Assembly: GCA_020051775.1 (NCBI GenBank) | Contig: JAGVQJ010000069.1 | Span: forward strand, 15,235-79,234 | Length of the DNA stretch: 64,000 bases | Source of the DNA: Calditrichota bacterium | Lineage (GTDB): Bacteria; Electryoneota; B3-LCP | Reading direction: 5' to 3' | Part shown: piece by piece, positions 38,667 to 55,858 of the stretch | Layout of the letters: each line of letters starts with the position of its first letter | Numbering within the stretch: position 1 is the stretch's first letter | Notes under the pieces: model-generated | What the model was told of the DNA's origin: nothing | The model's database searches: none | Seen by the model: only the letters and a program-made list of their open reading frames with translations | Position numbers and translations under genes: made by a program

Positions 38667-39128
38667 CTAATGCTCCTCCACCAAGTCCTCCTTGATCCTC
38701 TTTACGGCTTCCCCTACGCCATCCAGGACTGCCGACGAACATCCTTCTTGTAAAGTATAGGGATCTGCAACTTCAATTCCGTAAATTGTAATTTGCTCGG
38801 GGATCATCATCCCCATCATTTTCCCCAATTTCAGCGCTTCGGAAAAGCTCAAATCATGAAGGCAGGAGGCATGGAGATCGCCACTCAGCTCCTCCACTGA
38901 CATTTTCGTCACAGTTCCCGGTTCAGTGCGTCCGGTCATAAGGGCATCAATGATTATAGCTTTATCGAAACCGGTTATTTCATCCAGAATGCGCAATCCT
39001 CCGACGGAAGCGGTGCGAATTTCCACCTCTGGTGCGACGACCCATCTCCTCAATTGTTCCGCCGCCTCGCAACCAGCGCCGTCGTCGTAGAGGATGGGAT
39101 TACCCAAGCCCAGGATGACGGTTTTCAT
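38667..39128 (-). CDS. Hydrogenase maturation endopeptidase (HycI/HoxW family)
   Basis: 153 aa. MKTVILGLGNPILYDDGAGCEAAEQL typical of the family. Last gene of the hydrogenase operon. Confidence 0.8.
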   Translation of the reverse strand: MKTVILGLGNPILYDDGAGCEAAEQLRRWVVAPEVEIRTASVGGLRILDEITGFDKAIIIDALMTGRTEPGTVTKMSVEELSGDLHASCLHDLSFSEALKLGKMMGMMIPEQITIYGIEVADPYTLQEGCSSAVLDGVGEAVKRIKEDLVEEH

Positions 39129-40603: not shown

Positions 40604-41586
40604 GATTGTTTCCTCACCTCCATCTGCCCGCGCCCCAATATGGACGCCGCCAGGTTAAAGCGGTAGAATGTCCCTACTGGATCGGTTAAAGTGGCCAGTA
40701 TGCTGTCAATCTCCTCCGGTTCAGAGGCGTCAATGACTGAGGACAATGCTGAAATCATCTTCGCGCCGGGATCGAGGCAGTCCGGAGGCGGCCCGTAGCA
40801 TCCTCGACAAGGGACATTGACGGCTGTGCACTTGGCTCCGCAACCGGATCGTGTCGCCGGCCCACAGCAGACGATCCCCTGATCCATAAGGCATTCTTTT
40901 GGGTTAGGAATGATTTCATGTGGGCGGACGAACTTCTTGATCTTTTTCTCCTTCCGCTCACGGCCGCATTCATCACAACAGGTTTTATCGCCGGCGCCCA
41001 GGATGGTTCCCTTGGGCGGTAACGGTTGGCCGTTTTTTAGGATGTCAATGACCGCTACGACTACGTTCAGGATTTGATCCGATTGGGGTGGGCAGCCTGG
41101 GACATAGTAATCAACATCCACAACCTGATTCAGCGGTTTCACAGTATCCCACATGGTGGGGATTTCAATCGTCCCTTCCGGCATCTTGTTGATCGGCTGC
41201 GGGAAGATGCCGCTCTCATTCACCGTGGAAGGCGATTGTTTGTAGACGTAATCCCAGATCTGCTGCTTGGTGAAGAGGTTGGCCAAGCCAGGAATGCAAC
41301 CTTCTTGAGCGCAGGATCCGAACGCCACCAACACTTTGGACTTGGCGCGCAGCAGTTTGGCCATGTGCTCGTTCTCGGAATTACGGATGGATCCATTGAA
41401 GAGGCACAGAGTGATTTCCCCATCGGGCATAGCTTCCACGTCTTTGTATTTAAAATCCATAGCCACTGGCCACAGCACGATATCGAAGAAGTCCGCGATG
41501 GTCAGGATATGCTCTTCAACGTCCACGACGGCTATTTCACAGCCGCCACAGGACGCCGCCCAATATAAGGCCAGTTTTGGTTTCAC
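40600..41586 (-). CDS. [NiFe] hydrogenase small subunit (MvhG-like) with extra C-terminal Cys-rich extension
   Basis: 328 aa. LALYWAASCGGCEIAVVD proximal-cluster motif plus further Cys clusters (GCPP, CCDECG, CCGPATRSGCGAKC). Confidence 0.8.
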   Translation of the reverse strand: MKPKLALYWAASCGGCEIAVVDVEEHILTIADFFDIVLWPVAMDFKYKDVEAMPDGEITLCLFNGSIRNSENEHMAKLLRAKSKVLVAFGSCAQEGCIPGLANLFTKQQIWDYVYKQSPSTVNESGIFPQPINKMPEGTIEIPTMWDTVKPLNQVVDVDYYVPGCPPQSDQILNVVVAVIDILKNGQPLPPKGTILGAGDKTCCDECGRERKEKKIKKFVRPHEIIPNPKECLMDQGIVCCGPATRSGCGAKCTAVNVPCRGCYGPPPDCLDPGAKMISALSSVIDASEPEEIDSILATLTDPVGTFYRFNLAASILGRGQMEVRKQS

Positions 41587-41695: not shown

Positions 41696-42136
41696 TTATG
41701 CTGCGTTATAGGTGCCTTCAAGAATGCTGTCGCTGGTCAATTTCAAGGGACCCAGGGTTCGTATGGTCTGCGTGAAATCCGCTGAAAATCGAGCCCAGCG
41801 GTCGCCCTCGCTAGCGCTGACCCAGGTCAGGCGGAAGCGATCCGGATGAATGCCCAGATCGGCCAACACCCGTTTAATTAAGTGCGCTCGGCGCAGCATT
41901 TTGAAATTGCCTTCCTGATAATGGCAATCTCCGGGATGGCAGCCCGATACGATCACGCCGTCAGCGCCCGCCTGGAAAGCTTTGAACACGAAGACCGGAT
42001 CCATTCGCCCGGTGCACATCATGCGAATAACGCGAATATTGGGTGGATAGTGCAACCTGGAAGTGCCTGCCAGGTCGGCGCCGGTGTAAGAACACCAGTT
42101 GCACAGAAATCCGGCAATCTTGGGTTCCCAGCTCAT
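41696..42136 (-). CDS. mvhD: MvhD/FlpD-type hydrogenase iron-sulfur subunit
   Basis: 146 aa. FLCNWCSYTGADLAG...CTGRMDP...VSGCHPGDCHY conserved pattern. Confidence 0.85.
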   Translation of the reverse strand: MSWEPKIAGFLCNWCSYTGADLAGTSRLHYPPNIRVIRMMCTGRMDPVFVFKAFQAGADGVIVSGCHPGDCHYQEGNFKMLRRAHLIKRVLADLGIHPDRFRLTWVSASEGDRWARFSADFTQTIRTLGPLKLTSDSILEGTYNAA

Positions 42137-43938
42137 GCTTTCGCTCCTTGAGTCGGTTTGGCGAACAGTCCGTCAATTTCCGCCATGATCTGGGCGTTGG
42201 TGAAGCCTTTACCGGTGATAGCACCGGCGGGGCAAGCGGCTACACAGGTTCCGCACCCTTTGCACAGGGCGTCGTTGACGCGGGATATCTTTTTGTCCAG
42301 AACGAATTCGATGGCCCCATAAGGGCACAGGTTATTGCACATGCGGCACCCGCCGCAGAGCTCTTCGACTACCTCGGCGCGAATCGGATCCACTTCCACA
42401 TAACCACGGCTGATTAGCTGCAGGATGCGCGCCGCTGCTCCTTGTGCCTGAGCCACGCTGTCGGGAATGTCTTTAGGGCTTTGGCAGGCGCCGGCCAGGT
42501 AAATCCCATCCGTCATGGTGCTGGTGGGGTCCAGTTTGGGGTGACGTTCCAGGAAAAAACCGTCGGGGCTGCGCGATATTGAGAAGAGGCGACCCACTTC
42601 GTCGGCGTCATGCTGCGGTTCCATGGCTGCGCAAAGCACTACCATGTCCACGGGTATTTCTCGGAACTTACCGATCAAAGTGTCTTCAGCCCGAATCAGA
42701 AGCACGCCTTCATCCCGTTGCCCCCAACCGGCTTCCACGACTTCAGCCGCCTTGCCGCGAATCATGGTCACGCCTTCATCCAGCAGGCGGTGATAGAATT
42801 CTTCGTAGCCTTTCCCGAACGCGCGCATGTCAATGTAGAATTGATAGACCGCCGCCTTGGTGCGATCCTTGATTAAATGCGCCATCTTCAGAGCGTACAT
42901 GCAGCATACTCGCGAACAATACCGGTGGTGGTTCTCATCGCGGCTGCCGATGCAGTGGATGATTCCCACCGCGCGCGGTTCTTGCCCGTTCTTTAACACG
43001 ACCTGGCTGCCGGTCGGGCCGGTGGCATTCAACATGCGCTCGAATTCCAAAGCGCTGTAAACATTATCCAAGCGCCCATACCCATACTGGGCGAATTTCT
43101 TCAGGTCAATGGTCTGGAAGCCGGTTGAAATCAGGATCTGCCCCACGTCTACTTCGATCTCTTCCGGTTTTTGATTATAATTGATGGCGCCCGGTTCGCA
43201 ATATGTGGCGCAGACGCCGCAGCCGCCGGTCTGCATCTTAATGCAGGACTCCACGTCAATGACCGGCACTTTGGGGACGGATTGCAGCGTCTTGACGTAA
43301 ATGGAAGTTGTTGGCCCGGTGGGAAATTCCAGCGGCACCCCCTTTTCCGTGCGAGTGTCATCTATGACCTTGATGTACCCGGTGGGGCAAACAGCCGCGC
43401 AAGCACCGCAGGCAATGCACGTCTTGGATTCTTCATCGTATGGAGTCGCCACGCGACGTTTGATGCCGCGCCCGTCCATAGCGATGGCGCCCACACCCAC
43501 GATCTCATCGCAGACCCGAGTACACAGTCCGCATAAGATGCAGCCTTCCGTGCCCTCGCCAAAGCGTGATTTTTCCACGCCATACTGTTTGCCCAGCTCC
43601 TGCAGGAGAGGCACGTTGGAACTGCGGCCTAACAACAGCTCGATGATCATGGCGCGCACCCGACGGATGCGGTCGTTGATCGTCTCGATGACGATTCTAT
43701 CGGACACAGGGTAGTTGCAGGCAGTCACCAGGCGGCGGCGTTTGCCTTTGATTACTTCTACGCTGCATAACCGACAGGCGCCGTAGGGCTCCATCCAATC
43801 CACGTGGCATAAGGTTGGGATCTCGATACCCAGCTTATGCGCAGCTTGCAACACAGTGGAATTCTTTTCGATTTCCACCGAGCGCCCATCAATCGTCAAA
43901 TTAACCAATTTCTTATCCCCGGAAGCTTCACTTGACAT
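42133..43938 (-). CDS. Fusion protein: HydA/NuoG-type N-terminal [2Fe-2S]+[4Fe-4S] relay domain + C-terminal half of HdrA (second inserted-ferredoxin cluster, FAD domain part 2, C-terminal ferredoxin)
   Basis: 601 aa. N-terminus LVNLTIDGRSVEI...CHVDW..GACRLCSVEV, CILCGLCTRVCDE, CIACGACAAVCPTG. Then CIKMQTGGCGVCATYCEPGAI followed by HdrA hallmarks YGYGRLDNVYSALEFERML, CIGSRDENHHRYCSRVCCMYALK, DGIYLAGACQSPKDIPDSVAQA, and 2x CxxCxxCxxxCP at the C-terminus. Confidence 0.8.
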   Translation of the reverse strand: MSSEASGDKKLVNLTIDGRSVEIEKNSTVLQAAHKLGIEIPTLCHVDWMEPYGACRLCSVEVIKGKRRRLVTACNYPVSDRIVIETINDRIRRVRAMIIELLLGRSSNVPLLQELGKQYGVEKSRFGEGTEGCILCGLCTRVCDEIVGVGAIAMDGRGIKRRVATPYDEESKTCIACGACAAVCPTGYIKVIDDTRTEKGVPLEFPTGPTTSIYVKTLQSVPKVPVIDVESCIKMQTGGCGVCATYCEPGAINYNQKPEEIEVDVGQILISTGFQTIDLKKFAQYGYGRLDNVYSALEFERMLNATGPTGSQVVLKNGQEPRAVGIIHCIGSRDENHHRYCSRVCCMYALKMAHLIKDRTKAAVYQFYIDMRAFGKGYEEFYHRLLDEGVTMIRGKAAEVVEAGWGQRDEGVLLIRAEDTLIGKFREIPVDMVVLCAAMEPQHDADEVGRLFSISRSPDGFFLERHPKLDPTSTMTDGIYLAGACQSPKDIPDSVAQAQGAAARILQLISRGYVEVDPIRAEVVEELCGGCRMCNNLCPYGAIEFVLDKKISRVNDALCKGCGTCVAACPAGAITGKGFTNAQIMAEIDGLFAKPTQGAKA

Positions 43939-44008
43939 TACAATCCTCCGTACAGGTCACGGATTCAGAGGGACATCCACGGTAGTGTCCTTGCGTATCC
44001 AATAGTTA

Positions 44009-45889
44009 TCAGGCGGCTATGTCCGCGCCAATCCTCTTGGCGAAATCCTTGAACACATCAACAGCATCAACTTTGATCACTGCATGACGTTTGCAGATGG
44101 CGGCACAAGACCCGCATTTGACGCAGGTTTCAGGATTGATGCTATGCGGCTGTTTCAAATCGCCAACGATGCAGTTTTCCACTTTGCAAACGCGTTTGCA
44201 GATGGTGCAACCATTGCATTTATCTGCTTCAATAGTGTAGACAATCAGCGATCGGCAGGCTTTGCCCGGACAGCGCAGTTCCTTGATGTGAGTCTCGTAC
44301 TCATGAGCGAAATAACGGATGGTGGACATGACCGGATTAGGCGCCGATCCGCCTAAAGCACACAGGCTGGCTTCGGCGATGATCTGTGACATCTCCTCCA
44401 GCAATTGAATATCGCTGGGATGACCCAGTCCAGAGCAGATGCGGCCCAGGATGTTAGACATACTTTTCAGGCCTTCCCTGCAGGGGACGCATTTGCCACA
44501 GGATTCTCTGGATAGGAAGTCCACGTAATACTTGGCCATGTCAATCATGCAGTCAGTCTCGTCTAAGACAACCATACCGCCTGATCCCATCATGGAACCA
44601 GCCTCGGTCAGAGCATCGAAGTCCACCGGCAGGTCAAGCTGAGCTTCCGGCAGAAATCCGCCTGAGGGGCCGCCGGTCTGCACCGACTTGAACTTCTTGC
44701 CGTCCAGGATGCCGCCGCCGATATCGAAGATCATCTTGCGCAGGGTGATACCCATAGGGACTTCCACCAAACCGGTATTGGACACTTTACCGGCCAGCGA
44801 AAATACTTTAGTGCCGGTGCTTCCACCCCAGGGATTTTCAGACACATCACCGGTGCCGATGGACGCGAACCATTTTGCTCCTCGAGTCATGATGACGGGC
44901 ACATTGGCCCAGGTTTCCACGTTGTTCAACACGGTGGGTTTGTCCCACAGCCCATGCTCGACGGTGTGGATGTATTTCGCGCGGGGTTCACCCGTGCGGC
45001 CTTCGATGGAAGCCATCAACGCAGTGCTCTCCCCGCAAACGAAGGCGCCGGCGCCGCGTCGAACAGTGATATCGAAACTGAAATCCGTACCAAGAATATT
45101 TTTGCCCAGCAGACCGAATTCACGGGCTTGCTTAATGGCCGTGTGAAAGCGTTTGACGGCCAGAGGGTATTCCTTGCGTACGTAGATATAACCGTTGCTT
45201 GATCCCACTGCATAAGCGCCGATCAGCATCCCCTCGATAACCGAATGCGGGTCGCCTTCTACGATGCTGCGATCCATGAAAGCGCCGGGATCGCCTTCGT
45301 CAGCGTTGCAGATAACGTAGCGTACACCGTCTTCGCTATGCGCCTCCCGACAGGATAACCATTTAACGCCCGTGGGGAATCCGCCGCCGCCGCGCCCTCG
45401 CAATCCTGAACGATTAATCTCTTGTATGACTTCTTCCGGCTTCATAGAGGTCAGAACCCGTGCCAGCGCCTGGTAGCCGTCACGAGCGACATAATCCTCG
45501 ATCTTCTCCGGGTCAATGATGCCGCGATTACGCATGGCGATGAGCATTTGATCGCTGAAAAAGGGGATCTGGGACATCATGGGGACGACATCCTTGGTCA
45601 CCGGCTTCTTATACATCTTCTTAACCGCCGGACGCCCTTTCAATAAATGCTCTTCGGTGATGTAGGGGACATCGCCGATTTTCACCCGCGTGTAGAAGAT
45701 TTCCCCCGGCTGGACCAGCACGGTGGGGCCGCGGCCACAGAGAGCGTTGCAACCAGTAGGAACAACCAGGATTTCATCCTGTAGGTGATGCTTTTCGATC
45801 TCCTTTTGAAAAGCCTCCAACACCAGCAGGGAATCCTTCTCAACGCAGTTCTGACCGCTGCAGACCAACACGTGAAGTCTGAATGGCAT
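44009..45889 (-). CDS. NuoF-like NAD(P)H-binding flavoprotein (HydB-type, with N-terminal Trx-like [2Fe-2S] and C-terminal 2x[4Fe-4S])
   Basis: 626 aa. GLRGRGGGGFPTGVKW FMN/NADH motifs, ESCGKCVPCREG N3 cluster, C-terminal CNGCTIC..CVKCGSC ferredoxin. Confidence 0.9.
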   Translation of the reverse strand: MPFRLHVLVCSGQNCVEKDSLLVLEAFQKEIEKHHLQDEILVVPTGCNALCGRGPTVLVQPGEIFYTRVKIGDVPYITEEHLLKGRPAVKKMYKKPVTKDVVPMMSQIPFFSDQMLIAMRNRGIIDPEKIEDYVARDGYQALARVLTSMKPEEVIQEINRSGLRGRGGGGFPTGVKWLSCREAHSEDGVRYVICNADEGDPGAFMDRSIVEGDPHSVIEGMLIGAYAVGSSNGYIYVRKEYPLAVKRFHTAIKQAREFGLLGKNILGTDFSFDITVRRGAGAFVCGESTALMASIEGRTGEPRAKYIHTVEHGLWDKPTVLNNVETWANVPVIMTRGAKWFASIGTGDVSENPWGGSTGTKVFSLAGKVSNTGLVEVPMGITLRKMIFDIGGGILDGKKFKSVQTGGPSGGFLPEAQLDLPVDFDALTEAGSMMGSGGMVVLDETDCMIDMAKYYVDFLSRESCGKCVPCREGLKSMSNILGRICSGLGHPSDIQLLEEMSQIIAEASLCALGGSAPNPVMSTIRYFAHEYETHIKELRCPGKACRSLIVYTIEADKCNGCTICKRVCKVENCIVGDLKQPHSINPETCVKCGSCAAICKRHAVIKVDAVDVFKDFAKRIGADIAA

Positions 45890-45894
45890 GACTT

Positions 45895-46281
45895 CTATCC
45901 TCTCCGTTCGCTGCCGATCGCCAGCGCGAACTCCATGATGGGTTTGCCCGCCAACAGATGCTCGCCGAAAATTTTGCGGGTCTTCTCAGGCGTTAGATCA
46001 ATGTACTTTACCGGCGTTTCATCCGCCAACTCGACGGTGGCCATCGGTTCGTGGCTGCATAATCCTCCGCAACCGCTGGTAGTCACCAGGATATCGCCCA
46101 CGCCAGCCTTCTCCACTTCTTCTAAGACCGTCTTCATAATATCGCGAGCGCCGGCGGCAATGCCGCACGTGCCCATGTGCACGGTGATCCGGGCGCGGTG
46201 CTCGCCGCCTTCGCGCAGGGCGATGTGCTTGCGAGCGTCATCCCGCATTTTCGCCAGATCTTGAATCGTCAACTTAGGCAT
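45895..46281 (-). CDS. Thioredoxin-like [2Fe-2S] ferredoxin
   Basis: 128 aa. MGTCGIAAGA...SGCGGLCSHEP pattern. Confidence 0.7.
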   Translation of the reverse strand: MPKLTIQDLAKMRDDARKHIALREGGEHRARITVHMGTCGIAAGARDIMKTVLEEVEKAGVGDILVTTSGCGGLCSHEPMATVELADETPVKYIDLTPEKTRKIFGEHLLAGKPIMEFALAIGSERRG

Positions 46282-46396
46282 GATAGATCCTCTTGCTGTT
46301 CGTGCCGGGGTCGGTAATGACCCCGACTACAAAATCAGTGGATGACGTGATTTAATTCCGTAGTCAAGGTTGTCCCTGACCTTGACATGCTGCACT

Positions 46397-46915
46397 TTAA
46401 TCATCCCGTTCCTTGGGATGATGCTTTTCCGCTTCGGCGCGGCCTCGCAGTTCTTCGATTAACCTCGGAATCCGCTCCTGAGTTATCCGACCGATAACTT
46501 CCTCGCCGTTTATGATCATCACCGGAGCCAGACCACAAACACCCAGACAGGCCGCTGTCTCAAGACCGAAAAGCTTGTCCTCGGACACCTCGCCGACCTT
46601 CATCTTCAGCTCCTCCTCAAGCCTGTCAATAATCAGCGGCGATTGCTTGACATAGCAGAGCGTACCGTTGCACATGAGCATGTTGTACTTGGCCACGCCC
46701 CTGGGCTTGGTGCTGAAGGCGTTGTAGAAGGTGGCAATCTCCAGGATTTTGGGAACCGAAACCTTCAGATCCCCGGAAACTTCTTCCAAGATCTCCCGGG
46801 GCAAGTAATTATAATCCGATTGAACGTCGTGGAGCATTTCGATTAAGCATTCCTGCTTATGCTCCCAACGATCGAGAACTTCTTGTGCTGTTACCGGCAT
46901 ATCCTCAACCTCCAC
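46397..46915 (-). CDS. NuoE-like [2Fe-2S] subunit (HydC-type)
   Basis: 172 aa. ...MLMCNGTLCYVKQS...AACLGVCGLAPVMIING matches the NuoE/HndA fold. Confidence 0.85.
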   Translation of the reverse strand: MEVEDMPVTAQEVLDRWEHKQECLIEMLHDVQSDYNYLPREILEEVSGDLKVSVPKILEIATFYNAFSTKPRGVAKYNMLMCNGTLCYVKQSPLIIDRLEEELKMKVGEVSEDKLFGLETAACLGVCGLAPVMIINGEEVIGRITQERIPRLIEELRGRAEAEKHHPKERDD

Positions 46916-46918
46916 CAG

Positions 46919-47461
46919 TTATCGTAAACCGGCTTCGCCTTGCGCCAGGGATTCTTTCAAGGCGCGAATACCGGCTGCCGAACTTAGGCTGGTATGATTT
47001 AATTTTTCTTTAAATTCCCAGGTGGTGAAAATATATTCTCTGTTTTCCACCACATGGCTAAACCGAAATTCGACCTTTGGATTGCCTATGACCAGTGTGG
47101 TGATCGTCGCTCTCAAATCACCCAGCGGTCTACGGTCTATATGGTGGTATCCCATAGTGGCCGTGATTCGGGTTCCTGCTCCGAGAATTGATTCGATCTG
47201 CAAATCCCCGCCCGATATTTGCGCTGATTCCGCCAGAAAGGGCAGACCTAATCCGACCTGCTTAATCTTCTTCTTCGTGGTCATGAAGGGATCCCTGGCC
47301 GCTTGGAGGGTTGCTTCATCCATGCCCTTGCCGTCGTCGGTAATTTCGATGATCAAGCGGTCAGCAACAGGATCTTCCACCACCCTGATTTCCAATACCG
47401 TTGCCCCTGCCGTTACAGAATTCTCGGCAACGTCCAATATATGAAGGGAAAGATCATTCAT
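46919..47461 (-). CDS. Histidine-kinase-like ATPase domain protein (HATPase_c only)
   Basis: 180 aa. IIEITDDGKGMDE...GLGLPFL...GAGTRITA G-box motifs; no HisKA or sensor domain. Confidence 0.7.
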   Translation of the reverse strand: MNDLSLHILDVAENSVTAGATVLEIRVVEDPVADRLIIEITDDGKGMDEATLQAARDPFMTTKKKIKQVGLGLPFLAESAQISGGDLQIESILGAGTRITATMGYHHIDRRPLGDLRATITTLVIGNPKVEFRFSHVVENREYIFTTWEFKEKLNHTSLSSAAGIRALKESLAQGEAGLR

Positions 47462-48183
47462 TATTTACTTAGCGCGGCTTTTAATCCTTCAAATGAAATT
47501 TCATTCGTCTCCAATTCCGTCACGCCCCGCCCAATGGCCTCCAGCTCATGCGCATCCGAAGAACACACAAAGGGAAATGACTCATATTCCGGAAAGGTTT
47601 CTCGTGCCTTGGCTACGCTAAAATTCCAACTAATTTCCAGAGCGTCCAGCTTCAGGTCCGGCGGAATGAAACCCAACTGCGTTATGATGCCGAATCCTTC
47701 CCGGTCTATATGCGCTGCGACTGCCAACCCCTCCGCGCGGTGGATCACTCGCACGATATCCTCGAGGCTCAGCGTCGTTGCCCCAATCAACAGACGCTGG
47801 GAGAAATCTGTTATGTTATCCTTTTCGTCTGCCACGATCTGCATGCCGAAGCGTTCGGGATCGTTTTGGCCGGGTAGAGCGCCGTAGACCTTGGCTTGCA
47901 CTTCCAGTGCAGCTTCCACCGCTGGAAACCACCCCAGGATGTGCACTTCCTCTCGGCTGGTGATTTCCATTCCGGGGATGACCAACACACCGGTCTTGCG
48001 CCCTGCCTTTACGGCGGCCCAGGTGTTCTCGGCGCTATTGTGATCACACACCGCAATCACTTTTAAATCTTTTTGAGCAGACGCCTGAACAATCGCCTTG
48101 GGTGACATGAGCAAGTCAGCGCAGGGTGACAGGCACGTGTGAATGTGCAGGTCAGCTCGGATGCGCTTCAGCACGGTTGGCAT
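47461..48183 (-). CDS. PHP-domain metal-dependent phosphoesterase
   Basis: 240 aa. DLHIHTCLSPCADL...VIAVCDHNS His/Asp motifs of the PHP family. Confidence 0.75.
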   Translation of the reverse strand: MPTVLKRIRADLHIHTCLSPCADLLMSPKAIVQASAQKDLKVIAVCDHNSAENTWAAVKAGRKTGVLVIPGMEITSREEVHILGWFPAVEAALEVQAKVYGALPGQNDPERFGMQIVADEKDNITDFSQRLLIGATTLSLEDIVRVIHRAEGLAVAAHIDREGFGIITQLGFIPPDLKLDALEISWNFSVAKARETFPEYESFPFVCSSDAHELEAIGRGVTELETNEISFEGLKAALSK

Positions 48184-48520
48184 TTGTCGCCAGCAACCGG
48201 TTTAACCTGAAGGCCAGCTCGAAAGCGGACAGCGGGCTACCCAAGAGCGGAATCTTTTCCGCCTCGGCCTTTTGTAGAGTCTCAGGTAGTGGCTCTCGAC
48301 CATTGGCTAATAGGATTGCAGTAAGCTCTTTTAGACTGGCCACTGCAGCGATGTTGGGATGTGCCTGGATCGTGATCCATATTTCACCCGCTCGGGTATT
48401 GGCCATCACATCGGAGAGCAGATCCCCGCAGTATCCACCCACGACGGGTCGCTCGGTCAGCTCCTTGCAACAAAAGACCTTCAGTTCCAATGAGCCGATG
48501 ATTTGTTTCAGCATAGTCAT
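48152..48520 (-). CDS. DRTGG-domain protein
   Basis: 122 aa. Similar to the second DRTGG-like ORF at 50295-50654 (GDLLSDVMA vs ADLMSDVLA; IPLLGSPLSAFE vs IPLLCTSLGMFE). Confidence 0.6.
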   Translation of the reverse strand: MTMLKQIIGSLELKVFCCKELTERPVVGGYCGDLLSDVMANTRAGEIWITIQAHPNIAAVASLKELTAILLANGREPLPETLQKAEAEKIPLLGSPLSAFELAFRLNRLLATNANRAEAHPS

Positions 48521-48556
48521 AGTAGACTCATCCCATTCGTATAATCCAAGTGTAAC

Positions 48557-49849
48557 CTATTCTTTATCGCCTTCGGCAGGCACCTTGTAAATTCTTTTTA
48601 ATTCTTCCAGGTGAGCCTGGCCGTGAAAGATGCAATCGCTCACCTCTGCCTGGCCTCGCGAAATGTCTTCGGCCAGCGTATTACAATCGGGAGCGCCACA
48701 GACTCCGCAATTGATCATGGGAAAGAGCGCCAAGGCCTGCTCCTTAACCCGCCGCCGCGCCAGAGCCTCGATTAGGTTGACTTCAGGTCCGGAATAGCTC
48801 TTGGGCTTCTGCCGCTCCTCCAGGTGAAAGAACCCTTGATGGTAGAGCTTGCGAAGCTGATCTACCTCCAAGGGCGAAGTGTGGATTTTGCGTTGTTCTA
48901 AAAGAATGACTTTGTGGTAGGCCATGTAATAATTCTCTACCGTTAAGGGGCCACCGATGCAACCGCCCCGGCAACTCCAGCATTCAGCATAATCGGTATC
49001 TTTTAATTTGCCCGATTCAATATCATCCAAAACTCGGACTATCTCATAGAGTCCGGAGACCGTAATCCAGGATTGTTCTCTTAAGGCTGATCCCGATCCC
49101 CCCAACCGCGCCCAGCGCAGTCCAGTTCCCATGGTGGGCATGGGCCAACGATAAGCATCTGGTTGTTGATTGAGGAATGCCAACAAAGGATTATAGAGGT
49201 CGCGGATCGAGACTGCGCCCGAGATCGTTTGGTGATCCGGGTCATTTTCTCCCTGAGTTACCATGGCCGGACAAGGCGTTAAATAAATAGCATTGAAATC
49301 TTTTGGGCCTTTCATCTGCCCATTGCTGCGCTTTTGGCGCAAGGCCTCTACAGCGATCACCTCCGGCCCCTTCAAGGGAATCAACTGGTTGATCAGTGAC
49401 GGGTAGCGAATCTGTATCAACCGCACAATCGCCGGGCAAAAGCTGGAGATCAGCGGTTTGGGCCCGCGGTAGCTCAGGATAAACTCCCGGATCGCCCAAC
49501 TCACCCAGTCGCAATACTGAGTGATATCTACTGCTTCTTGAAAACCAATGCGCGAAAGGGCCTGCAAAATTTCTTCGGGTGAATATTCTCGCGGGAACTG
49601 TCCCAATAACGCCGGCGAAGGTACGGCCACGCGATATTTCAATTTCTCCAACTGCACCCAAGCATCGGTTTGGGGCGCAATGGCCTGATGGGGGCATACT
49701 TGCAGACATCGGCCGCAATCCACACACCGTTCTTCGATATTAATCGCCTTCCCATTGCGAATGCGAATAGCCTGAGTGGGACAGATTCTCAGGCAGTGCA
49801 TTTTCCCATCACAAAGTTCGGGAATGATTTTCAACATCGGAGAATGCAT
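48557..49849 (-). CDS. [FeFe]-hydrogenase-like protein with degenerate H-cluster motifs (HydS-type putative sensory hydrogenase)
   Basis: 430 aa. Two N-terminal ferredoxin motifs (CLRICPTQAI, CVDCGRCLQVCPHQAI). L1 SFCPA instead of TSCCP, L2 TPCPAM, L3 ECWSCRGGCIGGP retained. Extra C-terminal CGVCGAPDC. Confidence 0.7.
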   Translation of the reverse strand: MHSPMLKIIPELCDGKMHCLRICPTQAIRIRNGKAINIEERCVDCGRCLQVCPHQAIAPQTDAWVQLEKLKYRVAVPSPALLGQFPREYSPEEILQALSRIGFQEAVDITQYCDWVSWAIREFILSYRGPKPLISSFCPAIVRLIQIRYPSLINQLIPLKGPEVIAVEALRQKRSNGQMKGPKDFNAIYLTPCPAMVTQGENDPDHQTISGAVSIRDLYNPLLAFLNQQPDAYRWPMPTMGTGLRWARLGGSGSALREQSWITVSGLYEIVRVLDDIESGKLKDTDYAECWSCRGGCIGGPLTVENYYMAYHKVILLEQRKIHTSPLEVDQLRKLYHQGFFHLEERQKPKSYSGPEVNLIEALARRRVKEQALALFPMINCGVCGAPDCNTLAEDISRGQAEVSDCIFHGQAHLEELKRIYKVPAEGDKE

Positions 49850-49855
49850 GCTTGT

Positions 49856-50308
49856 TTATGTCAAAGTGATGGAGACTCTTAAGGTGGTTCCCTGCCCTAA
49901 TTTTGAGGTTAAGTCGAACTTGTCAGCATTACGCTTGATATTGGGTAAACCCATCCCCGCGCCAAACCCTTTTTCACGCATTGCTTCGGTCGCGGTTGAC
50001 CACCCTTCCTGCATGGCTAAATTGATATCGGGAATGCCCTGCCCCTGATCTTCTACAATCAAAACTAATTCTGAAGAGTGGATTTCCAGCGTCATGGAGC
50101 CTTTACCGGCGTACATGACTATGTTCATTTCGGCTTCATAGCAGCAGATAGCCAATCGCCGGATCAGGTCCGGAGAAATCTGGATTTCTTTCAGTAAATC
50201 TTTGATTTTGGTCGAGACATTACCCGCGGTGATGAAATTCCCGCCCTGTACTTCCCAACGCTGCTTCAGGAGCGGAACCCGATCACTTTGTCGGTCATCG
50301 GGCCGCAT
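49856..50308 (-). CDS. Histidine-kinase-like ATPase domain protein (second copy)
   Basis: Start placed at MRPDDRQ (50308). ...LIVEDQGQGIPD...GFGAGMGLPNI...GQGTTLRV. Confidence 0.65.
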   Translation of the reverse strand: MRPDDRQSDRVPLLKQRWEVQGGNFITAGNVSTKIKDLLKEIQISPDLIRRLAICCYEAEMNIVMYAGKGSMTLEIHSSELVLIVEDQGQGIPDINLAMQEGWSTATEAMREKGFGAGMGLPNIKRNADKFDLTSKLGQGTTLRVSITLT

Positions 50309-50654
50309 GGCCGTCGTCCCGAATTCCGGCGCGGTATAACCGGCCGCAACATTCAAACATGCCCAAGGAGGTGCACAACAATGGGATACCCCGCTCCTCC
50401 GCTTTCGTAACCACCTCGATGTCGGGATGTTTGCCCCGCACATATATAATAGCCTTGATATCAGCGATGTCTGCCGTCGAGATGGATTGCACGGTAGCCA
50501 GGCCGGTCAGCAGCAAAGTTCCCGGATGAGAAAAGGCGAGTACATCGCTCATCAGATCGGCAGCGCCGGCGGTTTCTATCACCAGGTCATCCAGGCGCTG
50601 AGTCCCAGCAAGAGTCTGGGCTTCCAGCAATTTTTCTACTTCGCGAAGTTTCAT
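50295..50654 (-). CDS. DRTGG-domain protein (second copy)
   Basis: 119 aa. Paralogous to 48152-48520; overlaps the downstream ATPase gene start by 14 nt. Confidence 0.6.
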   Translation of the reverse strand: MKLREVEKLLEAQTLAGTQRLDDLVIETAGAADLMSDVLAFSHPGTLLLTGLATVQSISTADIADIKAIIYVRGKHPDIEVVTKAEERGIPLLCTSLGMFECCGRLYRAGIRDDGHAAR

Positions 50655-50661
50655 GGAAATT

Positions 50662-51548
50662 CTATCCGAGTAATCTTCCCGGGTCTTTGCGGGTACGATA
50701 GATAACCTGTTTTTCCCCCAGCATTATGGTGCGACGGTGGGGGATCCGCACCGAAGGACAGTTAGACCAGCACTGCCCGCAGCCGGTACAGATTTCCGGG
50801 TCCACATAACGAGCCTTCTTGTGGATTTTCACCTTGAAATTGCCAATGTAACCCGATATTCCCACCACCTCAGACCAAGTGAAGAGTTTGATATTCTTAC
50901 GATGCCCCACCGAAACCATCTTGGGGGTTAGAATGCAGGCGGAACAATCCAAAGTGGGGAATGTCTTGTCGAAGTACGCCATATTCCCGCCAATGGTCGG
51001 CTCACGATCCACCAGGTACACAGGGTATCCGGCATTAGCAATTTCCAGCGCCGCCTGAATGCCGGAAATGCCTCCTCCCAGGATCAGCGAATTGGCGTTG
51101 ATGGGGACGCGGGATACTTGCATCGGTTCGTGCAGTCGCACCCGGAAAACCGCGGCGCGTCCCAAGTCGGTAGCCTTGGCCGTGGCTTCGACCCGGTCAT
51201 TATGCACCCAGGAACAATGCTCGCGCACATTAGCCATTTGAAATAGATAGCGATTCAGTCCGGCCTCCTCGCAGGCGGTACGAAACGTTAGCTCGTGCAT
51301 TAATGGCGAACATGCTGCCACAACCACACGCGTCAATCCCAGCGTGCGGATATCCTCTTTGATCAAATCCTGGCGGTGTTGGAACACATGAATTTGTAAT
51401 CCCGCGAAACGACGACATCGGGGATTTGCCTCATGGCGTCGCGTACTTTGGTAACGTCAACCGTTGTGGATATGTTGACGCCGCAGTGGCAGATATAAAA
51501 GCCAATCTTCTCCGGGGATTTCTTGCCGTTACCATTACCGTTGCTCAT
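50662..51548 (-). pseudogene. hdrA: hdrA N-terminal half (N-domain, FAD-binding part 1, first cluster of inserted ferredoxin) interrupted by an apparent -1 frameshift near 51365-51372; gene ends inside the inserted-ferredoxin domain
   Basis: Track ORFs 51363-51548 (…GFYICHCGVNISTTVDV…DYKFMCSNTARI*) and 50662-51387 (…QDLIKEDI…NVREHCSWVH…LILGGGISGIQAALEIANAGYPVYLVDREPTIGG…CTGCGQCWSNCP) are consecutive HdrA segments in different frames. Restoring one C in the run ccgcc(c)agg gives FMCSNTAQDLIKEDI, which matches the canonical HdrA order. Confidence 0.65.
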
Positions 51549-52423
51549 ATTTTCGTCTCCAAAAGCTTGGCTACGTTTGCGGCTAAGGGTACCAGGTGTT
51601 TATCAATTCCCATTTGTGAAATACTGCTACCCATTGCCACACCCAACAGTTCGGTAAAGAATAGGGTGGGGATGGTATAGGAATGGCCATAGGATTGTTG
51701 GAGTTCATCCATGTGCATGTCCAGGTTTGCCTGGCACATGGGACAAGTTGTCAGAATGACATCGGCGCCGTTCTCCTGCGCGCAACGGAGCAGTTCATCG
51801 GTCAATTTCAAGGCGACGTCTGCAAAGGTGAACATGAGCATGCCTCCACAGCAGCGTACTTTATTGGGGTAGTAAACCGACTCAGCCCCCAGCGCTTCGA
51901 ACAGTTTGTCCATGGTGACTGGATTCTCAGCGTCGTCAAATGTGGCATAAGGGCGCACGATTTGGCAGCCATAGTACTGCGCAATTTTCAAACCCTTCAG
52001 CGATACTTTGGCTTTTTGCGCGATGGCTTCGATTCCCACGTCGTTGACCAGCACGTCTAAGGGATGACGCACCCGGCAACCTAGGTTATAGGATAAACCA
52101 ACCTGACTCAAGGCTGAATTTACATGATCGAAGAGCTGCGACTTCTCCGCCATGATTTTATGCGTCTTGGCCAATACCGTGTAACAGGCGCTGCATGGCG
52201 CCACGATGTCCAATCCAGCTTTCTCCGCCAAAGCTAAATTGCGCGCTGAAATGGCCAACGAGACCGTTTCCTTGACGGACATGTAAGCAGTCGCGCCGCA
52301 GCAATTCCAATCAACGATTTCGCTTAAACCCAATCCCAAGTCGGAAAACACCGACTTAAGTGATTTATCGTAGGAATCGGCCGAAGCCTCCAGGCTGCAG
52401 CCAGGATAGTAGGTATAATTCAT
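51545..52423 (-). CDS. hdrB: Heterodisulfide reductase subunit B (two CCG domains)
   Basis: 292 aa. YYPGCSL...NCCG and YYGCQ...RCCGG patterns. Confidence 0.85.
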   Translation of the reverse strand: MNYTYYPGCSLEASADSYDKSLKSVFSDLGLGLSEIVDWNCCGATAYMSVKETVSLAISARNLALAEKAGLDIVAPCSACYTVLAKTHKIMAEKSQLFDHVNSALSQVGLSYNLGCRVRHPLDVLVNDVGIEAIAQKAKVSLKGLKIAQYYGCQIVRPYATFDDAENPVTMDKLFEALGAESVYYPNKVRCCGGMLMFTFADVALKLTDELLRCAQENGADVILTTCPMCQANLDMHMDELQQSYGHSYTIPTLFFTELLGVAMGSSISQMGIDKHLVPLAANVAKLLETKI

Positions 52424-53142
52424 CTTTGGACTCCGCCGGAATCCGGGACCTCGCCATCAACGGCGCGATACCCGATCATTCCTTCAATATATTCCTTTTT
52501 ATGGGTTTCACGCGGTACGGCGAAAGTGTCTGCCTTGGCGATGATCTTGCGGATATCTTCGAGGGCGCGAATGCGTTTGGGTGCGATGGAAATCCTTCCC
52601 AATTTCATCAACTTGAAGCCCATTGGCGCCATCCGGAATAACCTCATGAGGTCGGTCTTCAGGTAAAACTGCATCATCAATCCCAACTCGAAGTTTCGAC
52701 CATACCGGTTTACATTATCCACGAACTTGGCAGAGAGGGCATACACGGGGAATTTATCGGGGTAAATTTTGCGCTCCATCGCGATGCGCTTCAGAGCATA
52801 TATGATATCAGTAACTTTGATGCTTGAAGGACAGCGGGAAGTGCATTGGTAGCAGGAGGCGCAAATCCAGATGGAGCGGGATTGTAATATCTTCTCGATT
52901 AATCCAGCGCGAAACAGAGCAATTAATTCACGGGGTTGAACATCCATGGCATAGGATACCGGACAGGAACCGGAGCAAGTACCACATTGAATACAGCGAT
53001 TGATCTTCTCGCCACCGGGGATGTCCATGACCTGATTAAGAAATTCCAGCCGCAGTTCGGATTCCTTGCGCGTCACCATGCCAGGTTTGCGGTCATCCAG
53101 TTGCTGTACTGTTTTCGGAGCCACAGCGGATCTCTCCTTCAT
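52420..53142 (-). CDS. hdrC: Heterodisulfide reductase subunit C
   Basis: 240 aa. CIQCGTCSGSCP and CASCYQCTSRCP [4Fe-4S] motifs. First gene of the operon. Confidence 0.85.
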   Translation of the reverse strand: MKERSAVAPKTVQQLDDRKPGMVTRKESELRLEFLNQVMDIPGGEKINRCIQCGTCSGSCPVSYAMDVQPRELIALFRAGLIEKILQSRSIWICASCYQCTSRCPSSIKVTDIIYALKRIAMERKIYPDKFPVYALSAKFVDNVNRYGRNFELGLMMQFYLKTDLMRLFRMAPMGFKLMKLGRISIAPKRIRALEDIRKIIAKADTFAVPRETHKKEYIEGMIGYRAVDGEVPDSGGVQR

Positions 53143-53231: not shown

Positions 53232-53249
53232 ATGTTAGTAATATAACAT
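53232..53249. promoter_or_regulatory. Perfect 18-bp palindrome ATGTTA-gtaata-TAACAT, candidate operator ~90 bp upstream of hdrC
   Basis: Read directly in the AT-rich divergent intergenic region 53143-53607. Confidence 0.5.
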
Positions 53250-53346
53250 GTACTGCCGATTTTGTCAAGCATTTTCTTATTTTTTTTCAATAGGCTTAAA
53301 GTGCCGTATTGGAGCTATTCGAGAGAAGGCACTAATTGTTCATACT

Positions 53347-53468: not shown

Positions 53469-53607
53469 TATCTATTTGATAATCACTATCGAACGTCGGA
53501 AAATTTTACTGGATTTCGCTCTTCACACTCTGGAACGAGCAATTTTTTATTGTATTTCCTTTGACAAATACTTATATTTAGGTACTAAGCAAAGAGGGAA
53601 TAGGGAT

Positions 53608-55802: not shown

Positions 55803-55858
55803 GTCGAATTGAATTTAATGCACCGGTGGGCCGAATATTTTTTTTAGGAGGTACCGGT

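What the first reader, a model, noticed from the sequence alone, without database searches (positions are those of the whole stretch)
42133..51548. hdrA appears split inside its inserted-ferredoxin domain, with a ~6.7-kb HydS/HydC/HydB cassette between the halves and an in-frame fusion at the junction
The N-half gene (50662-51548) ends right after the first CxxCxxCxxxCP motif of the HdrA inserted-ferredoxin domain (CTGCGQCWSNCP), followed by a ~30-aa non-homologous tail. The 601-aa protein resumes HdrA exactly at the second motif (CIKMQTGGCGVCATYCEPGAI) and continues through FAD part 2 and the C-terminal ferredoxin. Its first ~220 aa look like the [2Fe-2S]/[4Fe-4S] F-cluster domain of HydA/NuoG. 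The intervening DNA carries the diaphorase and sensory module. The simplest explanation is insertion of a hydS...hydCB-hydA' cassette into an ancestral hdrA. That would create a split flavoprotein whose two halves must re-associate and that gains a direct Fe-S wire to NuoF.
Basis: partly seen in the sequence, partly recalled or inferred. Interest (0 to 1): 0.8.

Follow-up and report, generated by a model that had tools for sequence, protein, structure and literature searches.

The report
Split HdrA wired to a Bfu module
The heterodisulfide-reductase flavoprotein gene hdrA really is encoded in two pieces here, with an NADH/ferredoxin (Bfu) module fused into its ferredoxin-output domain. This is not a local accident but a conserved operon design shared by several bacterial phyla, and I found no description of it in the literature I could search.

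Summary
The core observation holds. On the minus strand lies one tightly packed operon: hdrC-hdrB-hdrA(N part)-[DRTGG, HATPase, HydS-like, DRTGG, PHP, HATPase]-bfuC(nuoE)-fd-bfuB(nuoF)-[bfuA::hdrA C part]-mvhD-mvhG-mvhA-hycI.

Three details need correcting:
- The N-part gene carries a 1-nt deletion (frameshift) near 51373 in this assembly.
- Its "non-homologous" tail is a conserved family feature.
- HdrA homology in the 601-aa protein resumes about 25 residues before the second Cys motif, so the two pieces overlap slightly.

The N-terminal 195 residues are a WorA-like type-2 BfuA, not a HydA remnant.

The layout is old and selected, not a recent insertion. The same split operon occurs in Zixibacteria, Ignavibacteria/Bacteroidota, Sumerlaeia, Coatesbacteria and other metagenome assemblies. 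At least 120 protein clusters exist for each piece, and every Cys ligand is invariant. The N-part and C-part trees agree. One natural protein (P0251) carries N part + BfuA + C part in a single chain. Sister operons carry an NfnB-like module in the same domain.

Most likely this is a Bfu-Hdr-Mvh supercomplex whose FAD site and inserted ferredoxin domain assemble from two polypeptides. It is a new variant of known kinds. Reaction direction and thiol substrate are inferred only.

The parts
53240..53268 (-). sigma-70-like promoter candidate upstream of hdrC, in an A+T-rich intergenic region
   Evidence: 11 of 12 hexamer matches with a TG extension. G+C drops to 0.40-0.42 here. This is a consensus match only.
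52420..53142 (-). hdrC (4Fe-4S dicluster subunit)
   Evidence: Pfam Fer4_8/Fer4_17. 50-77% identical to the gene at the same position in L001 and L003.
51545..52423 (-). hdrB (two CCG domains)
   Evidence: Pfam CCG, E 1.5e-30, two stretches. Its stop overlaps the hdrA-N start (ATGA).
50662..51548 (-). hdrA N part: N-terminal Fe-S domain, the first part of the FAD domain (GGGISG), Cys motif 1 of the inserted ferredoxin domain (CTGCGQCWSNCP) and a conserved tail. Interrupted by a 1-nt deletion at about 51373-51374.
   Evidence: Frameshift shown. Relatives of 286-297 aa are intact.
50295..50654 (-). DRTGG-domain protein
   Evidence: Pfam PF07085. Conserved at this position in L003, L004, L018, L019 and L020.
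49856..50308 (-). HATPase_c_2 (anti-sigma/Ser-kinase-like ATPase). The start is approximate; the mechanical ORF extends to 50443.
   Evidence: Pfam PF13581/PF02518. Orthologues are 141-154 aa.
48557..49849 (-). HydS-like [FeFe]-hydrogenase-related protein (2x4Fe-4S + H-domain + PF04060 FeS), with no PAS domain
   Evidence: Pfam Fe_hyd_lg_C E 6e-22, FeS, Fer4. Divergent H-cluster motifs SSFCP / TPCPAM / ECWSCRGGCIGGP read from the translation.
48152..48520 (-). second DRTGG-like protein
   Evidence: Pfam DRTGG, weak, E 3e-4. Conserved position.
47461..48183 (-). PHP-domain phosphoesterase
   Evidence: Pfam PHP/PHP_C.
46919..47461 (-). HATPase_c protein (histidine-kinase-like ATPase), common just upstream of nuoE in these clusters
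   Evidence: Pfam PF02518, E 3e-13. Present even in the short cassette of L001.
46397..46915 (-). bfuC / nuoE-like thioredoxin-like [2Fe-2S] subunit
   Evidence: Pfam 2Fe-2S_thioredx, E 7e-41.
45895..46281 (-). small 128-aa protein with a CGxxxG...SGCGGLC pattern, probably a thioredoxin-like [2Fe-2S] ferredoxin (BfuD-like)
   Evidence: No Pfam hit. Conserved at 53-81% identity in all split loci. The cofactor is inferred from the Cys pattern only.
44009..45889 (-). bfuB / nuoF-like FMN subunit of the bifurcating type
   Evidence: End-to-end alignment to A. mobile NiFe-HydB 7T2R_B, E 1e-232. All five B2-site ligands are conserved: C447, C485, H534, C540, C545.
43354..43938 (-). BfuA module of the 601-aa fusion (residues 1-195): [2Fe-2S] Cys44/55/58/74 and 2x[4Fe-4S] motif A Cys133-143 plus motif B Cys174-184. 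It has no His-ligated cluster and no C-terminal domain.
   Evidence: 9MQX_A (WorA) E 4e-45 over residues 12-195, including an identical CPTGYI. Model rmsd 1.4 A. All these Cys are 100% conserved in 120 homologues.
43264..43353 (-). junction/linker of the fusion (residues ~196-225). HdrA homology resumes at ~207.
   Evidence: pLDDT below 50 for residues 194-225. Alignment limits. The same junction position (~206-219) occurs in ~15 divergent representative proteins.
42133..43263 (-). HdrA C part of the fusion: Cys motif 2 of the inserted ferredoxin domain (C232, C240, C243, C247), the rest of the FAD domain including the CSRVCC cluster and the GPKDIP segment, and the C-terminal 2x[4Fe-4S] ferredoxin domain
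   Evidence: 5ODC_A/8RVU alignment to residue 651/657, E ~1e-113. Cys conservation.
41696..42136 (-). mvhD ([2Fe-2S] adaptor)
   Evidence: Pfam FlpD, E 6e-53. Its start overlaps the stop of the fusion gene.
40600..41586 (-). mvhG, [NiFe]-hydrogenase small subunit
   Evidence: Pfam Oxidored_q6. 54-86% identical across the loci.
39125..40603 (-). mvhA, [NiFe]-hydrogenase large subunit
   Evidence: Pfam NiFeSe_Hases. RLCGVCPEAH and DPCFGCATH motifs read from the translation.
38667..39128 (-). hycI-type hydrogenase maturation protease
   Evidence: Pfam HycI.

Best explanation
The locus encodes a conserved hybrid of two electron-bifurcating machines: a Bfu-Hdr-Mvh complex.

Architecture:
- HdrA is made from two polypeptides. 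The ~295-aa N part supplies the N-terminal Fe-S domain, the GxGxxG half of the FAD site and Cys motif 1 of the inserted ferredoxin domain.
- The two pieces must dock to form the FAD site.
- Most likely they also form a 2x[4Fe-4S] inserted ferredoxin domain assembled in trans.

Wiring:
- In methanogen HdrA the inserted ferredoxin domain is the exit for low-potential electrons to free ferredoxin.
- Here BfuA is plugged in at that exit, so the branch is hard-wired through BfuA to the BfuBC (NuoF/NuoE-like) core, which handles NAD(H) and ferredoxin.
- HdrBC serves a still unknown thiol/disulfide.

Proposed overall reaction (inferred): H2 oxidation coupled to disulfide reduction plus NAD+ and ferredoxin reduction, possibly reversible.

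Regulation (inferred): the HydS-like, DRTGG, PHP and HATPase genes between the halves are the usual regulatory companions of Bfu hydrogenase clusters and probably tune expression or activity to H2 or redox state.

Shown: the gene content, the domain boundaries, the conservation and the single-chain counterpart. Inferred: physical association, the trans-assembled clusters, reaction direction and substrate.
For: 1. Complementary coverage of one HdrA. The N part aligns to 5ODC_A 4-277 and the fusion to 5ODC_A ~266-651. FAD-binding elements are divided between them.
2. Motif B belongs to BfuA, not HdrA. WorA aligns through CPTGYI and the model fits it at rmsd 1.4 A. That leaves motif 2 without a partner in cis. 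Motif 1 on the N part is present in all 119 stand-alone (286-297 aa) N-part proteins examined, and all 16 Cys of motifs A, B and C and the [2Fe-2S] site are 100% conserved in 120 fusions.
3. The same gene order occurs in independent assemblies: L001/L002, L003, L004, L007, L018, L019, L020.
4. NJ trees of the N part and the C part have matching topology.
5. Rosetta-stone protein P0251 is a complete 660-aa gene with FAD N part + motif 1 + BfuA + linker + motif 2 + rest of the FAD domain in one chain.
6. About 15 of the 150 best BfuA-like representatives are fusions with the junction at the same place.
7. BfuB has every bifurcating-type feature tested.
8. Sister operons carry an NfnB/GltD-like NAD(P)H module inside the same domain. 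This is known for ANME-1 HdrA (PMC9012536).
9. Bam-type Bfu enzymes already combine BfuABC with an HdrA module (PMC9304861).
10. The AF2 model of the fusion alone is confident for BfuA but poor for the HdrA part, as expected for an incomplete fold.
11. Overlapping or closely spaced genes and one promoter-like site upstream of hdrC fit a single transcription unit.
Against: - No physical or biochemical data exist. Association of the two pieces is inferred.
- In this window the N-part gene is frameshifted, so this particular copy may be inactive unless the indel is an assembly error.
- In L021 the hdrCB/hdrA-N genes are not directly upstream of the cassette, so linkage is not obligatory.
- The 64-sequence alignment may by itself explain the poor AF2 confidence in the HdrA part.
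- The small NJ trees do not show the split type as a single clade.
- Reaction direction and the HdrBC substrate are unknown.
Confidence: 0.75

Rival explanations
1. A mobile or recombined hydS...nuoEF-hydA' cassette recently inserted into and disrupted an intact hdrA in this organism. On this view the N part is a decaying remnant and the fusion an accidental chimera.
For: The N-part gene carries a frameshift in this assembly. The gene order looks like a normal hdrCBA-mvhDGA operon with something dropped into hdrA.
Against: - The identical architecture occurs in at least 8 independent assemblies across phyla.
- At least 120 clusters of intact 286-297-aa N parts share a conserved tail.
- All Cys ligands are invariant in 120 fusions.
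- G+C shows no step across the cassette.
- Codons on both sides of the frameshift still match L003 at 83-85% amino-acid identity despite many nucleotide differences in the aligned DNA.
Confidence: 0.03
2. The architecture is functional in the lineage, but this organism's copy is inactivated. The 1-nt deletion in hdrA-N would be real and the operon on its way to loss.
For: - The deletion lies in a non-homopolymer context (ACC-G-CCAGG), which is not a typical short-read error.
- The source annotation also has the truncated 234-aa call (P0134).
- The frameshift separates Cys20, Cys22 and Cys55 of the N-terminal cluster domain from the rest of the protein.
Against: - This is the only disruption seen in the 15-kb operon.
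- The sequence on both sides of it is fully conserved.
- The closest relative at 90% identity (P0121) is intact.
- A metagenome assembly consensus can carry single-base errors or minority variants.
Confidence: 0.15
3. The two hdrA-derived genes do not work together. The fusion would build its ferredoxin domain in cis from motif B + motif 2 and act as a non-flavin Fe-S wire, while the N part would be an independent small flavoprotein or serve another partner.
For: - HMMER can align motif B to HdrA motif 1 with near-normal spacing to motif 2.
- L021 lacks the N-part gene directly upstream.
- L019 has two fusion genes but only one N-part gene within the 21.8-kb stretch examined.
Against: - Motif B and the following CPTGYI are part of the BfuA fold shared with WorA. 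Using it for HdrA would orphan motif A.
- The fusion keeps every residue block of the second half of the FAD domain under strong conservation, which is pointless without the GxGxxG half.
- N-part and C-part trees agree.
- P0251 joins the parts in one chain.
Confidence: 0.06
4. Assembly chimera: the junctions at about 43.3 kb and 50.66 kb join unrelated contigs.
For: None beyond the unusual layout.
Against: The same junctions, at the same residue positions, appear in many independent assemblies from ENA, JGI and NCBI.
Confidence: 0.01

Closest known systems
MvhAGD-HdrABC of hydrogenotrophic methanogens (PDB 5ODC, 8RVU)
   Same: HdrB, HdrC, MvhD, MvhG and MvhA are all present and adjacent. All four HdrA domains are recognisable at 47-60% identity, including the FAD domain and both ferredoxin domains.
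   Different: HdrA is on two polypeptides. A BfuA module is fused in at the inserted ferredoxin domain, and BfuB/BfuC plus a small ferredoxin are added. The low-potential exit is therefore not open to free ferredoxin in the same way. The host is a bacterium with no CoM/CoB, so the disulfide substrate is unknown.
Type-2 Bfu enzymes: WorABCSL (PDB 9MQX) and Bam-Bfu (BamBCDEFGHI, class II benzoyl-CoA reductase)
   Same: - A BfuBC core with the full bifurcating cofactor set.
- A BfuA lacking clusters A3 and A5, which must pass electrons through A4 (PMC9304861; PMC12318220).
- Bam-Bfu also contains an HdrA module and an MvhD-like subunit.
   Different: Here BfuA is covalently fused to two-thirds of HdrA, the other third is a separate protein, and the partner is a group-3c-type [NiFe] hydrogenase plus HdrBC rather than a tungsten enzyme. 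WorA's zinc-finger/helix adaptor is replaced by HdrA.
HdrA with an NfnB/GltD-like insertion (ANME-1 HdrA9-11; here also L005/L006 Ignavibacteria, L007, L010-L014)
   Same: An NAD(P)H-handling module is placed inside the inserted ferredoxin domain between the two Cys motifs. The flanking operon is otherwise identical, hycI-hdrCB-hdrA-mvhDGA.
   Different: That form is a single polypeptide of ~1140 aa. Its insertion point lies ~25 residues further downstream (after FPQAVPxxxVID), and the module is NfnB-like, not Bfu.
NiFe-HydABCSL of Acetomicrobium mobile (PDB 7T2R)
   Same: It provides the best structural match for BfuB (E 1e-232) and is a Bfu core coupled to a [NiFe] hydrogenase.
   Different: In that enzyme the hydrogenase docks directly on a type-3 BfuA via cluster A3, with no HdrA, HdrBC or MvhD.

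Membership tests
HdrA (heterodisulfide reductase flavoprotein, as in 5ODC) | N-terminal domain with its Cys ligands, then a GxGxxG FAD fold | tested here: met
   The repaired N part aligns to 5ODC_A 4-277, E 4e-100, including CHCG, MCS, AACSP and GGGISG. In this assembly the region is cut by a frameshift.
HdrA (heterodisulfide reductase flavoprotein, as in 5ODC) | Second half of the FAD domain with its [4Fe-4S] (CxGSRD...YCSxVCC) and the GPKDIP segment, plus the C-terminal 2x[4Fe-4S] ferredoxin domain | tested here: met
   Fusion residues ~250-596 align to 5ODC_A ~310-651. These Cys are invariant in 120 homologues.
HdrA (heterodisulfide reductase flavoprotein, as in 5ODC) | Inserted ferredoxin domain with two Cys motifs in one chain; the whole protein a single polypeptide | tested here: not met
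   Motif 1 is on the N-part protein and motif 2 on the fusion, separated by 6.7 kb and nine genes. Both motifs are conserved.
HdrA (heterodisulfide reductase flavoprotein, as in 5ODC) | FAD bound, and flavin-based bifurcation | not testable with these tools
   This needs purified protein.
Bfu (BfuABC) electron-bifurcating family (Schut et al. 2022, PMC9304861) | BfuB with an FMN domain, an N-terminal [2Fe-2S] domain, a C-terminal 2x[4Fe-4S] domain and the five B2-site ligands including the diagnostic His | tested here: met
   End-to-end alignment with 7T2R_B (3-606 vs 4-596). C447/C485/H534/C540/C545 correspond to C438/C476/H525/C531/C536, and GAFMD is conserved.
Bfu (BfuABC) electron-bifurcating family (Schut et al. 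2022, PMC9304861) | BfuC: NuoE-like [2Fe-2S] subunit | tested here: met
   Pfam 2Fe-2S_thioredx, E 7e-41.
Bfu (BfuABC) electron-bifurcating family (Schut et al. 2022, PMC9304861) | BfuA with clusters A1 and A2. Type 2 means A3 and A5 are absent and electrons enter through A4. | tested here: met
   [2Fe-2S] plus two CxxCxxCxxxC motifs. No HxxxCxxC motif lies between them (sequence). The best match is the type-2 WorA. The nearest database relatives are ~250-aa stand-alone BfuA.
Bfu (BfuABC) electron-bifurcating family (Schut et al. 2022, PMC9304861) | Bifurcating or confurcating activity with NAD(H) and ferredoxin | not testable with these tools
   An enzyme assay is needed.
[NiFe] hydrogenase group 3c (Mvh type) | Large and small subunits next to MvhD and Hdr genes, with N- and C-terminal CxxC Ni-Fe ligand motifs | tested here: met
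   Pfam NiFeSe_Hases, Oxidored_q6 and FlpD. RLCGVCPEAH and DPCFGCATH read in the translation. A formal HydDB L1/L2 classification was not run.
Sensory [FeFe] hydrogenase (HydS / group C) | H-domain plus a PAS or other signalling domain in the same protein | tested here: not met
   The 430-aa protein has Fer4 + Fe_hyd_lg_C + PF04060 but no PAS domain. The label 'HydS' is therefore only an analogy; signalling partners (DRTGG, HATPase, PHP) are separate genes.

The most novel reading that the evidence does not exclude
This would be an undescribed class of Bfu enzyme ('Hdr/Mvh-Bfu'), widespread in Zixibacteria, Ignavibacteria/Bacteroidota, Sumerlaeia and other phyla. Two different bifurcation centres, the HdrA FAD and the BfuBC FMN/Fe-S site, would be connected in series through a ferredoxin domain assembled from two polypeptides. 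The complex would couple H2, a thiol/disulfide, NAD(H) and ferredoxin. If so, the usual annotation of bacterial 'MvhADG-HdrABC' as a methanogen-like H2:ferredoxin/heterodisulfide enzyme is wrong for these lineages.
Probability: 0.5. Interest if true: 0.75.

Novelty: new variant of a known kind. Interest (0 to 1): 0.62.

Why it matters
Group 3c [NiFe] hydrogenase/Hdr operons are routinely annotated in bacterial metagenome genomes as methanogen-like bifurcating enzymes (for example PMC7509429 and PMC5317091), although these bacteria have no CoM-S-S-CoB.

This study shows three things:
- In a large set of bacteria, the ferredoxin exit of HdrA is replaced by a hard-wired BfuABC module. In sister operons it is replaced by an NfnB-like module.
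- This gives a concrete, testable hypothesis for what these enzymes do: link H2 to NAD(H) and ferredoxin.
- It identifies the inserted ferredoxin domain as a recurrent docking site for new redox modules.

The locus is also a natural example of a flavoprotein whose FAD site, and probably an Fe-S domain, are split between two genes, with a single-chain counterpart for comparison. That is useful for studying and engineering bifurcating complexes.

On the practical side, gene callers label the pieces 'HdrA', 'NAD(P)-binding protein' or '4Fe-4S binding protein', so pathway reconstructions miss the Bfu link.

Tried and rejected
1. In-frame TGA as selenocysteine. HdrA has Sec in some organisms. Rejected: downstream homology continues in a different frame, and L003 shows a 1-nt gap, not a TGA/TGC substitution.
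2. Recent horizontal insertion detectable by composition. No G+C or skew step at 43.9 kb or 50.66 kb.
3. Origin of the fused module from a truncated HydA. Rejected in favour of a WorA-like type-2 BfuA.
4. AlphaFold of a concatenated N part + linker + fusion with a 12-row paired alignment (A2), to test trans-assembly. The single-chain model of the fusion alone gave only indirect support.
5. Literature. Eight full-text searches and several papers were read. None describes the split HdrA/BfuA fusion. Appel et al. 2021 (BBA 1862:148379), the most likely place, is not held, so prior description cannot be excluded.
6. Monophyly of the split type. Small NJ trees group the split copies with NfnB-insert HdrAs of the same lineage rather than with each other. 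With 14 sequences and a distance method, I do not treat this as evidence for multiple origins.
7. The terminator scan gave no excess over shuffles inside the operon.

Full report
**What is in the window**

Between 38.6 and 53.3 kb all genes lie on the minus strand, with overlapping or closely spaced boundaries. The order is:
- hdrC 52420-53142
- hdrB 51545-52423
- hdrA N part 50662-51548
- DRTGG 50295-50654
- HATPase_c_2 ~49856-50308
- HydS-like protein 48557-49849
- DRTGG-like 48152-48520
- PHP 47461-48183
- HATPase_c 46919-47461
- NuoE-like 46397-46915
- a 128-aa Cys-containing protein 45895-46281
- NuoF-like 44009-45889
- a 601-aa protein 42133-43938
- mvhD 41696-42136
- mvhG 40600-41586
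- mvhA 39125-40603
- hycI 38667-39128

Pfam supports each assignment except the 128-aa protein. One strong sigma-70-like site lies upstream of hdrC, and terminator-like sites inside the operon are not in excess. G+C is even across the region. The window holds no other hdrA.

**Checking the split**

Comparisons were made against solved structures.
- The 601-aa protein matches HdrA of methanogens over residues ~207-596 (8RVU 276-657; 5ODC to 651), E about 1e-113.
- Its residues 12-195 match the NuoG/HydA-type Fe-S module. The best hit is the 247-aa BfuA subunit WorA of the tungsten enzyme WorABCSL (9MQX_A) (identity of 9MQX from PMC12318220).
- The upstream gene, once its reading frame is repaired, matches HdrA residues 4-277, E 4e-100.

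The two pieces together therefore cover the whole of HdrA.

**Three corrections**

1. The N-part gene is not an intact ORF here.
   - The frame from ATG 51548 ends at TGA 51365-51363 (…YKFMCSNTARI*). Homology continues in another frame (…QDLIKEDI…).
   - DNA alignment with the closest genome locus (L003, a Zixibacteria MAG) shows a single missing base in the Gly codon at about 51373-51374.
   - The public annotation of the same 82-kb contig also has only a 234-aa product (P0134). Relatives at 82-90% identity are intact at 291-295 aa.
   - I cannot tell an assembly error from a real, very recent mutation. The codons on both sides are still conserved.

2. The tail after motif 1 is not junk.
   - In all 119 stand-alone N-part proteins it reads CTGCGQCWSNCPatRIPsGRsIxxGdxLvNE….
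   - It aligns weakly to the HdrA linker.

   - WorA aligns through …CIACGACAAVCPTGYIKVIDD (identical CPTGYI), so motif B is BfuA's own last cluster motif.
   - HdrA homology then resumes at ~207 (TGPTTSIYVKTLQSVPKVPVIDVESC…), about 25 residues before motif 2.
   - Both pieces thus keep a version of the linker, which gives a small overlap.

**Is it a one-off?**

No.
- Full-length homologues of the 601-aa protein (584-601 aa, 62-83% identical) fill the whole list of 120 best clusters. Their source names include Ignavibacteria, Bacteroidota and Sumerlaeia.
- Of the 120 best hits to the N part, 118 are stand-alone proteins of 286-297 aa. The other two are this window's own truncated 234-aa gene call (P0134) and one 377-aa canonical-type HdrA fragment (P0183).
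- The gene neighbourhoods repeat the window's order:
  - L001/L002 have a shorter cassette (HydS-like + HATPase only).
  - L003 (Zixibacteria), L004 (a MAG labelled Chlorobiaceae), L018 (Sumerlaeia), L019 and L020 follow the same order.
  - L007 (Coatesbacteria) has no regulatory genes between the halves.
- In L021 the front half of the operon is not directly upstream.
- In 120 fusion proteins every Cys of the [2Fe-2S] site and of motifs A, B and C is invariant.
- A search of 1.84 billion representatives with the BfuA part alone showed two things:
  - Its nearest relatives are mostly ~240-280-aa stand-alone BfuA proteins.
  - About 15 of the best 150 representatives are BfuA::HdrA-C fusions, down to 33-41% identity, joined at the same position (~206-219).

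**Evidence that the two pieces are one functional unit**

a. The FAD fold is divided. GxGxxG and FPTLDCSAC are on the N part. The CSRVCC cluster and the AGxxxGPKDIP segment are on the fusion.

b. Counting motifs. BfuA's ferredoxin-like domain uses motifs A + B, as in WorA (model rmsd 1.4 A). Motif 2 then has no partner in cis, while motif 1 on the N part is strictly conserved. Four motifs give four clusters only if motif 1 and motif 2 pair in trans.

c. N-part and C-part NJ trees have matching topology.

d. P0251 is a complete 660-aa gene in a BamB/AOR-type cluster. It has FAD N part, motif 1, an acidic linker, BfuA, the linker strand, motif 2 and the rest of the FAD domain in a single chain. 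This is a natural fused counterpart of the window's two proteins.

e. The AF2 model of the fusion alone is confident for BfuA (pLDDT ~90). It is disordered at the junction (194-225) and poorly folded in the HdrA part. This fits an incomplete domain, though the alignment was shallow.

**The same domain is a recurrent docking site**

- In Ignavibacteria (L005, L006), Coatesbacteria (L007) and Thermodesulfobacteriota MAGs (L010-L014), an otherwise identical operon has a one-piece HdrA of ~1140 aa. It carries a ~500-aa NfnB/GltD-like insertion between the two motifs.
- That kind of insertion has been described for ANME-1 HdrA (PMC9012536).
- Its insertion point is after FPQAVPxxxVID, about 25 residues downstream of the break in the split form. 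The two designs are therefore independent solutions, not one replacing the other at the same residue.
- L008 and L009 have ordinary contiguous HdrA. L017 encodes a contiguous HdrA too, but it is matched in two frames there.

**How it probably works**

[quoted passage not shown] This is summarised in PMC9012536.
- Here the low-potential exit is fused to BfuA.
- BfuB is of the bifurcating type:
  - It aligns end to end with A. mobile NiFe-HydB.
  - It keeps all five ligands of the B2 site, including the diagnostic His, and the GAFMD segment (criteria from PMC9304861).
- The most economical model is a supercomplex in which HdrA's low-potential branch feeds, or is fed by, BfuA clusters A4-A2-A1 and the BfuBC core, which exchanges electrons with NAD(H) and ferredoxin.
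- This resembles what has been proposed for the Bam-type Bfu enzyme, where BfuABC and an HdrA module act in series (PMC9304861).
- I favour H2 oxidation coupled to reduction of a disulfide plus NAD+ and ferredoxin, possibly reversible.
- The direction, stoichiometry and thiol substrate are inference only.
- The HydS-like protein (H-cluster Cys retained in divergent motifs, no PAS) and the DRTGG/HATPase/PHP genes are typical companions of Bfu hydrogenase clusters. Group C and A3 genes are clustered in this way (PMC11406978). They are probably regulatory.

**Evolution**

- The event is ancient.
- The module is a type-2 BfuA rather than a HydA stump.
- Both pieces keep the linker, and a single-chain form exists.

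Three routes are all open: a domain insertion followed by gene fission, duplication with complementary loss (L007 has a full hdrA next to the split pair), or more than one origin. The small trees cannot decide.

**Novelty**

Within the searchable library I found no description of a split HdrA or of a BfuA-HdrA fusion. Genome papers simply call these operons MvhADG/HdrABC. The key HdrA review could not be read. I therefore rate the locus as a new variant of known kinds (Hdr-Mvh and Bfu). It is widespread rather than unique to this window.

**Verdict**

This copy carries an unexplained frameshift. Interest is moderate to high for bioenergetics.

Noticed in passing
window 51363-51387 (minus strand): There is a single-base deletion in hdrA-N relative to L003 and to all close relatives. 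It gives a 61-codon ORF ending at TGA 51365-51363, and the remainder sits in another frame. The public annotation of the same contig has only a 234-aa product.
   Followed up: partly
L019 11791-15991: A second nuoE-nuoF-(BfuA::HdrA-C-like, 590 aa) set follows the first fusion gene, before mvhD. Only one hdrA N-part gene was seen in the stretch examined.
   Followed up: partly
L007 2010-9997: In this Coatesbacteria locus a full-length 1140-aa HdrA with an NfnB-like insertion sits directly upstream of the split pair. Its NuoF is fused to a DPD_II + GltD-like FAD/NAD(P) module (1060 aa), like the 'sub-type I BfuB' of PMC11406978.
   Followed up: partly
P0251 (JGI 3300042731, 20.8-kb contig); P0265, P0274: P0251 is a single-chain HdrA with BfuA inserted, lying in a BamB/AOR-type cluster next to another HdrA-like gene. 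P0265 and P0274 (~1090 aa) carry BfuA::HdrA-C' followed by a second complete HdrA in one protein.
   Followed up: partly
L021 1-4800; L018 11824-12210; L021 6705-7637: In L021 a T9SS-tailed protein, not hdrCB/hdrA-N, precedes the cassette. Extra genes sit between the fusion and mvhD in some loci: a 23S-rRNA-IVP family protein in L018 and a radical-SAM protein in L021.
   Followed up: no
window 53476-54492 (+) and 54546-55802 (+): A UbiA-family prenyltransferase is divergently transcribed from the operon, followed by a DUF362 protein. A UbiA gene is also divergent upstream of hdrC in L019.
   Followed up: no
window 35907-38546 (+) and 55826-57427 (+): Large right-handed beta-helix proteins flank the operon. 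The first has a Por_Secre_tail (T9SS) sorting domain, which fits an FCB-group/Zixibacteria host.
   Followed up: no
window 45895-46281 (minus strand): A conserved 128-aa protein between nuoE and nuoF has no Pfam hit but shows a thioredoxin-like [2Fe-2S] Cys pattern. It is present in every split locus at 53-81% identity (29% in the Coatesbacteria locus L007).
   Followed up: no
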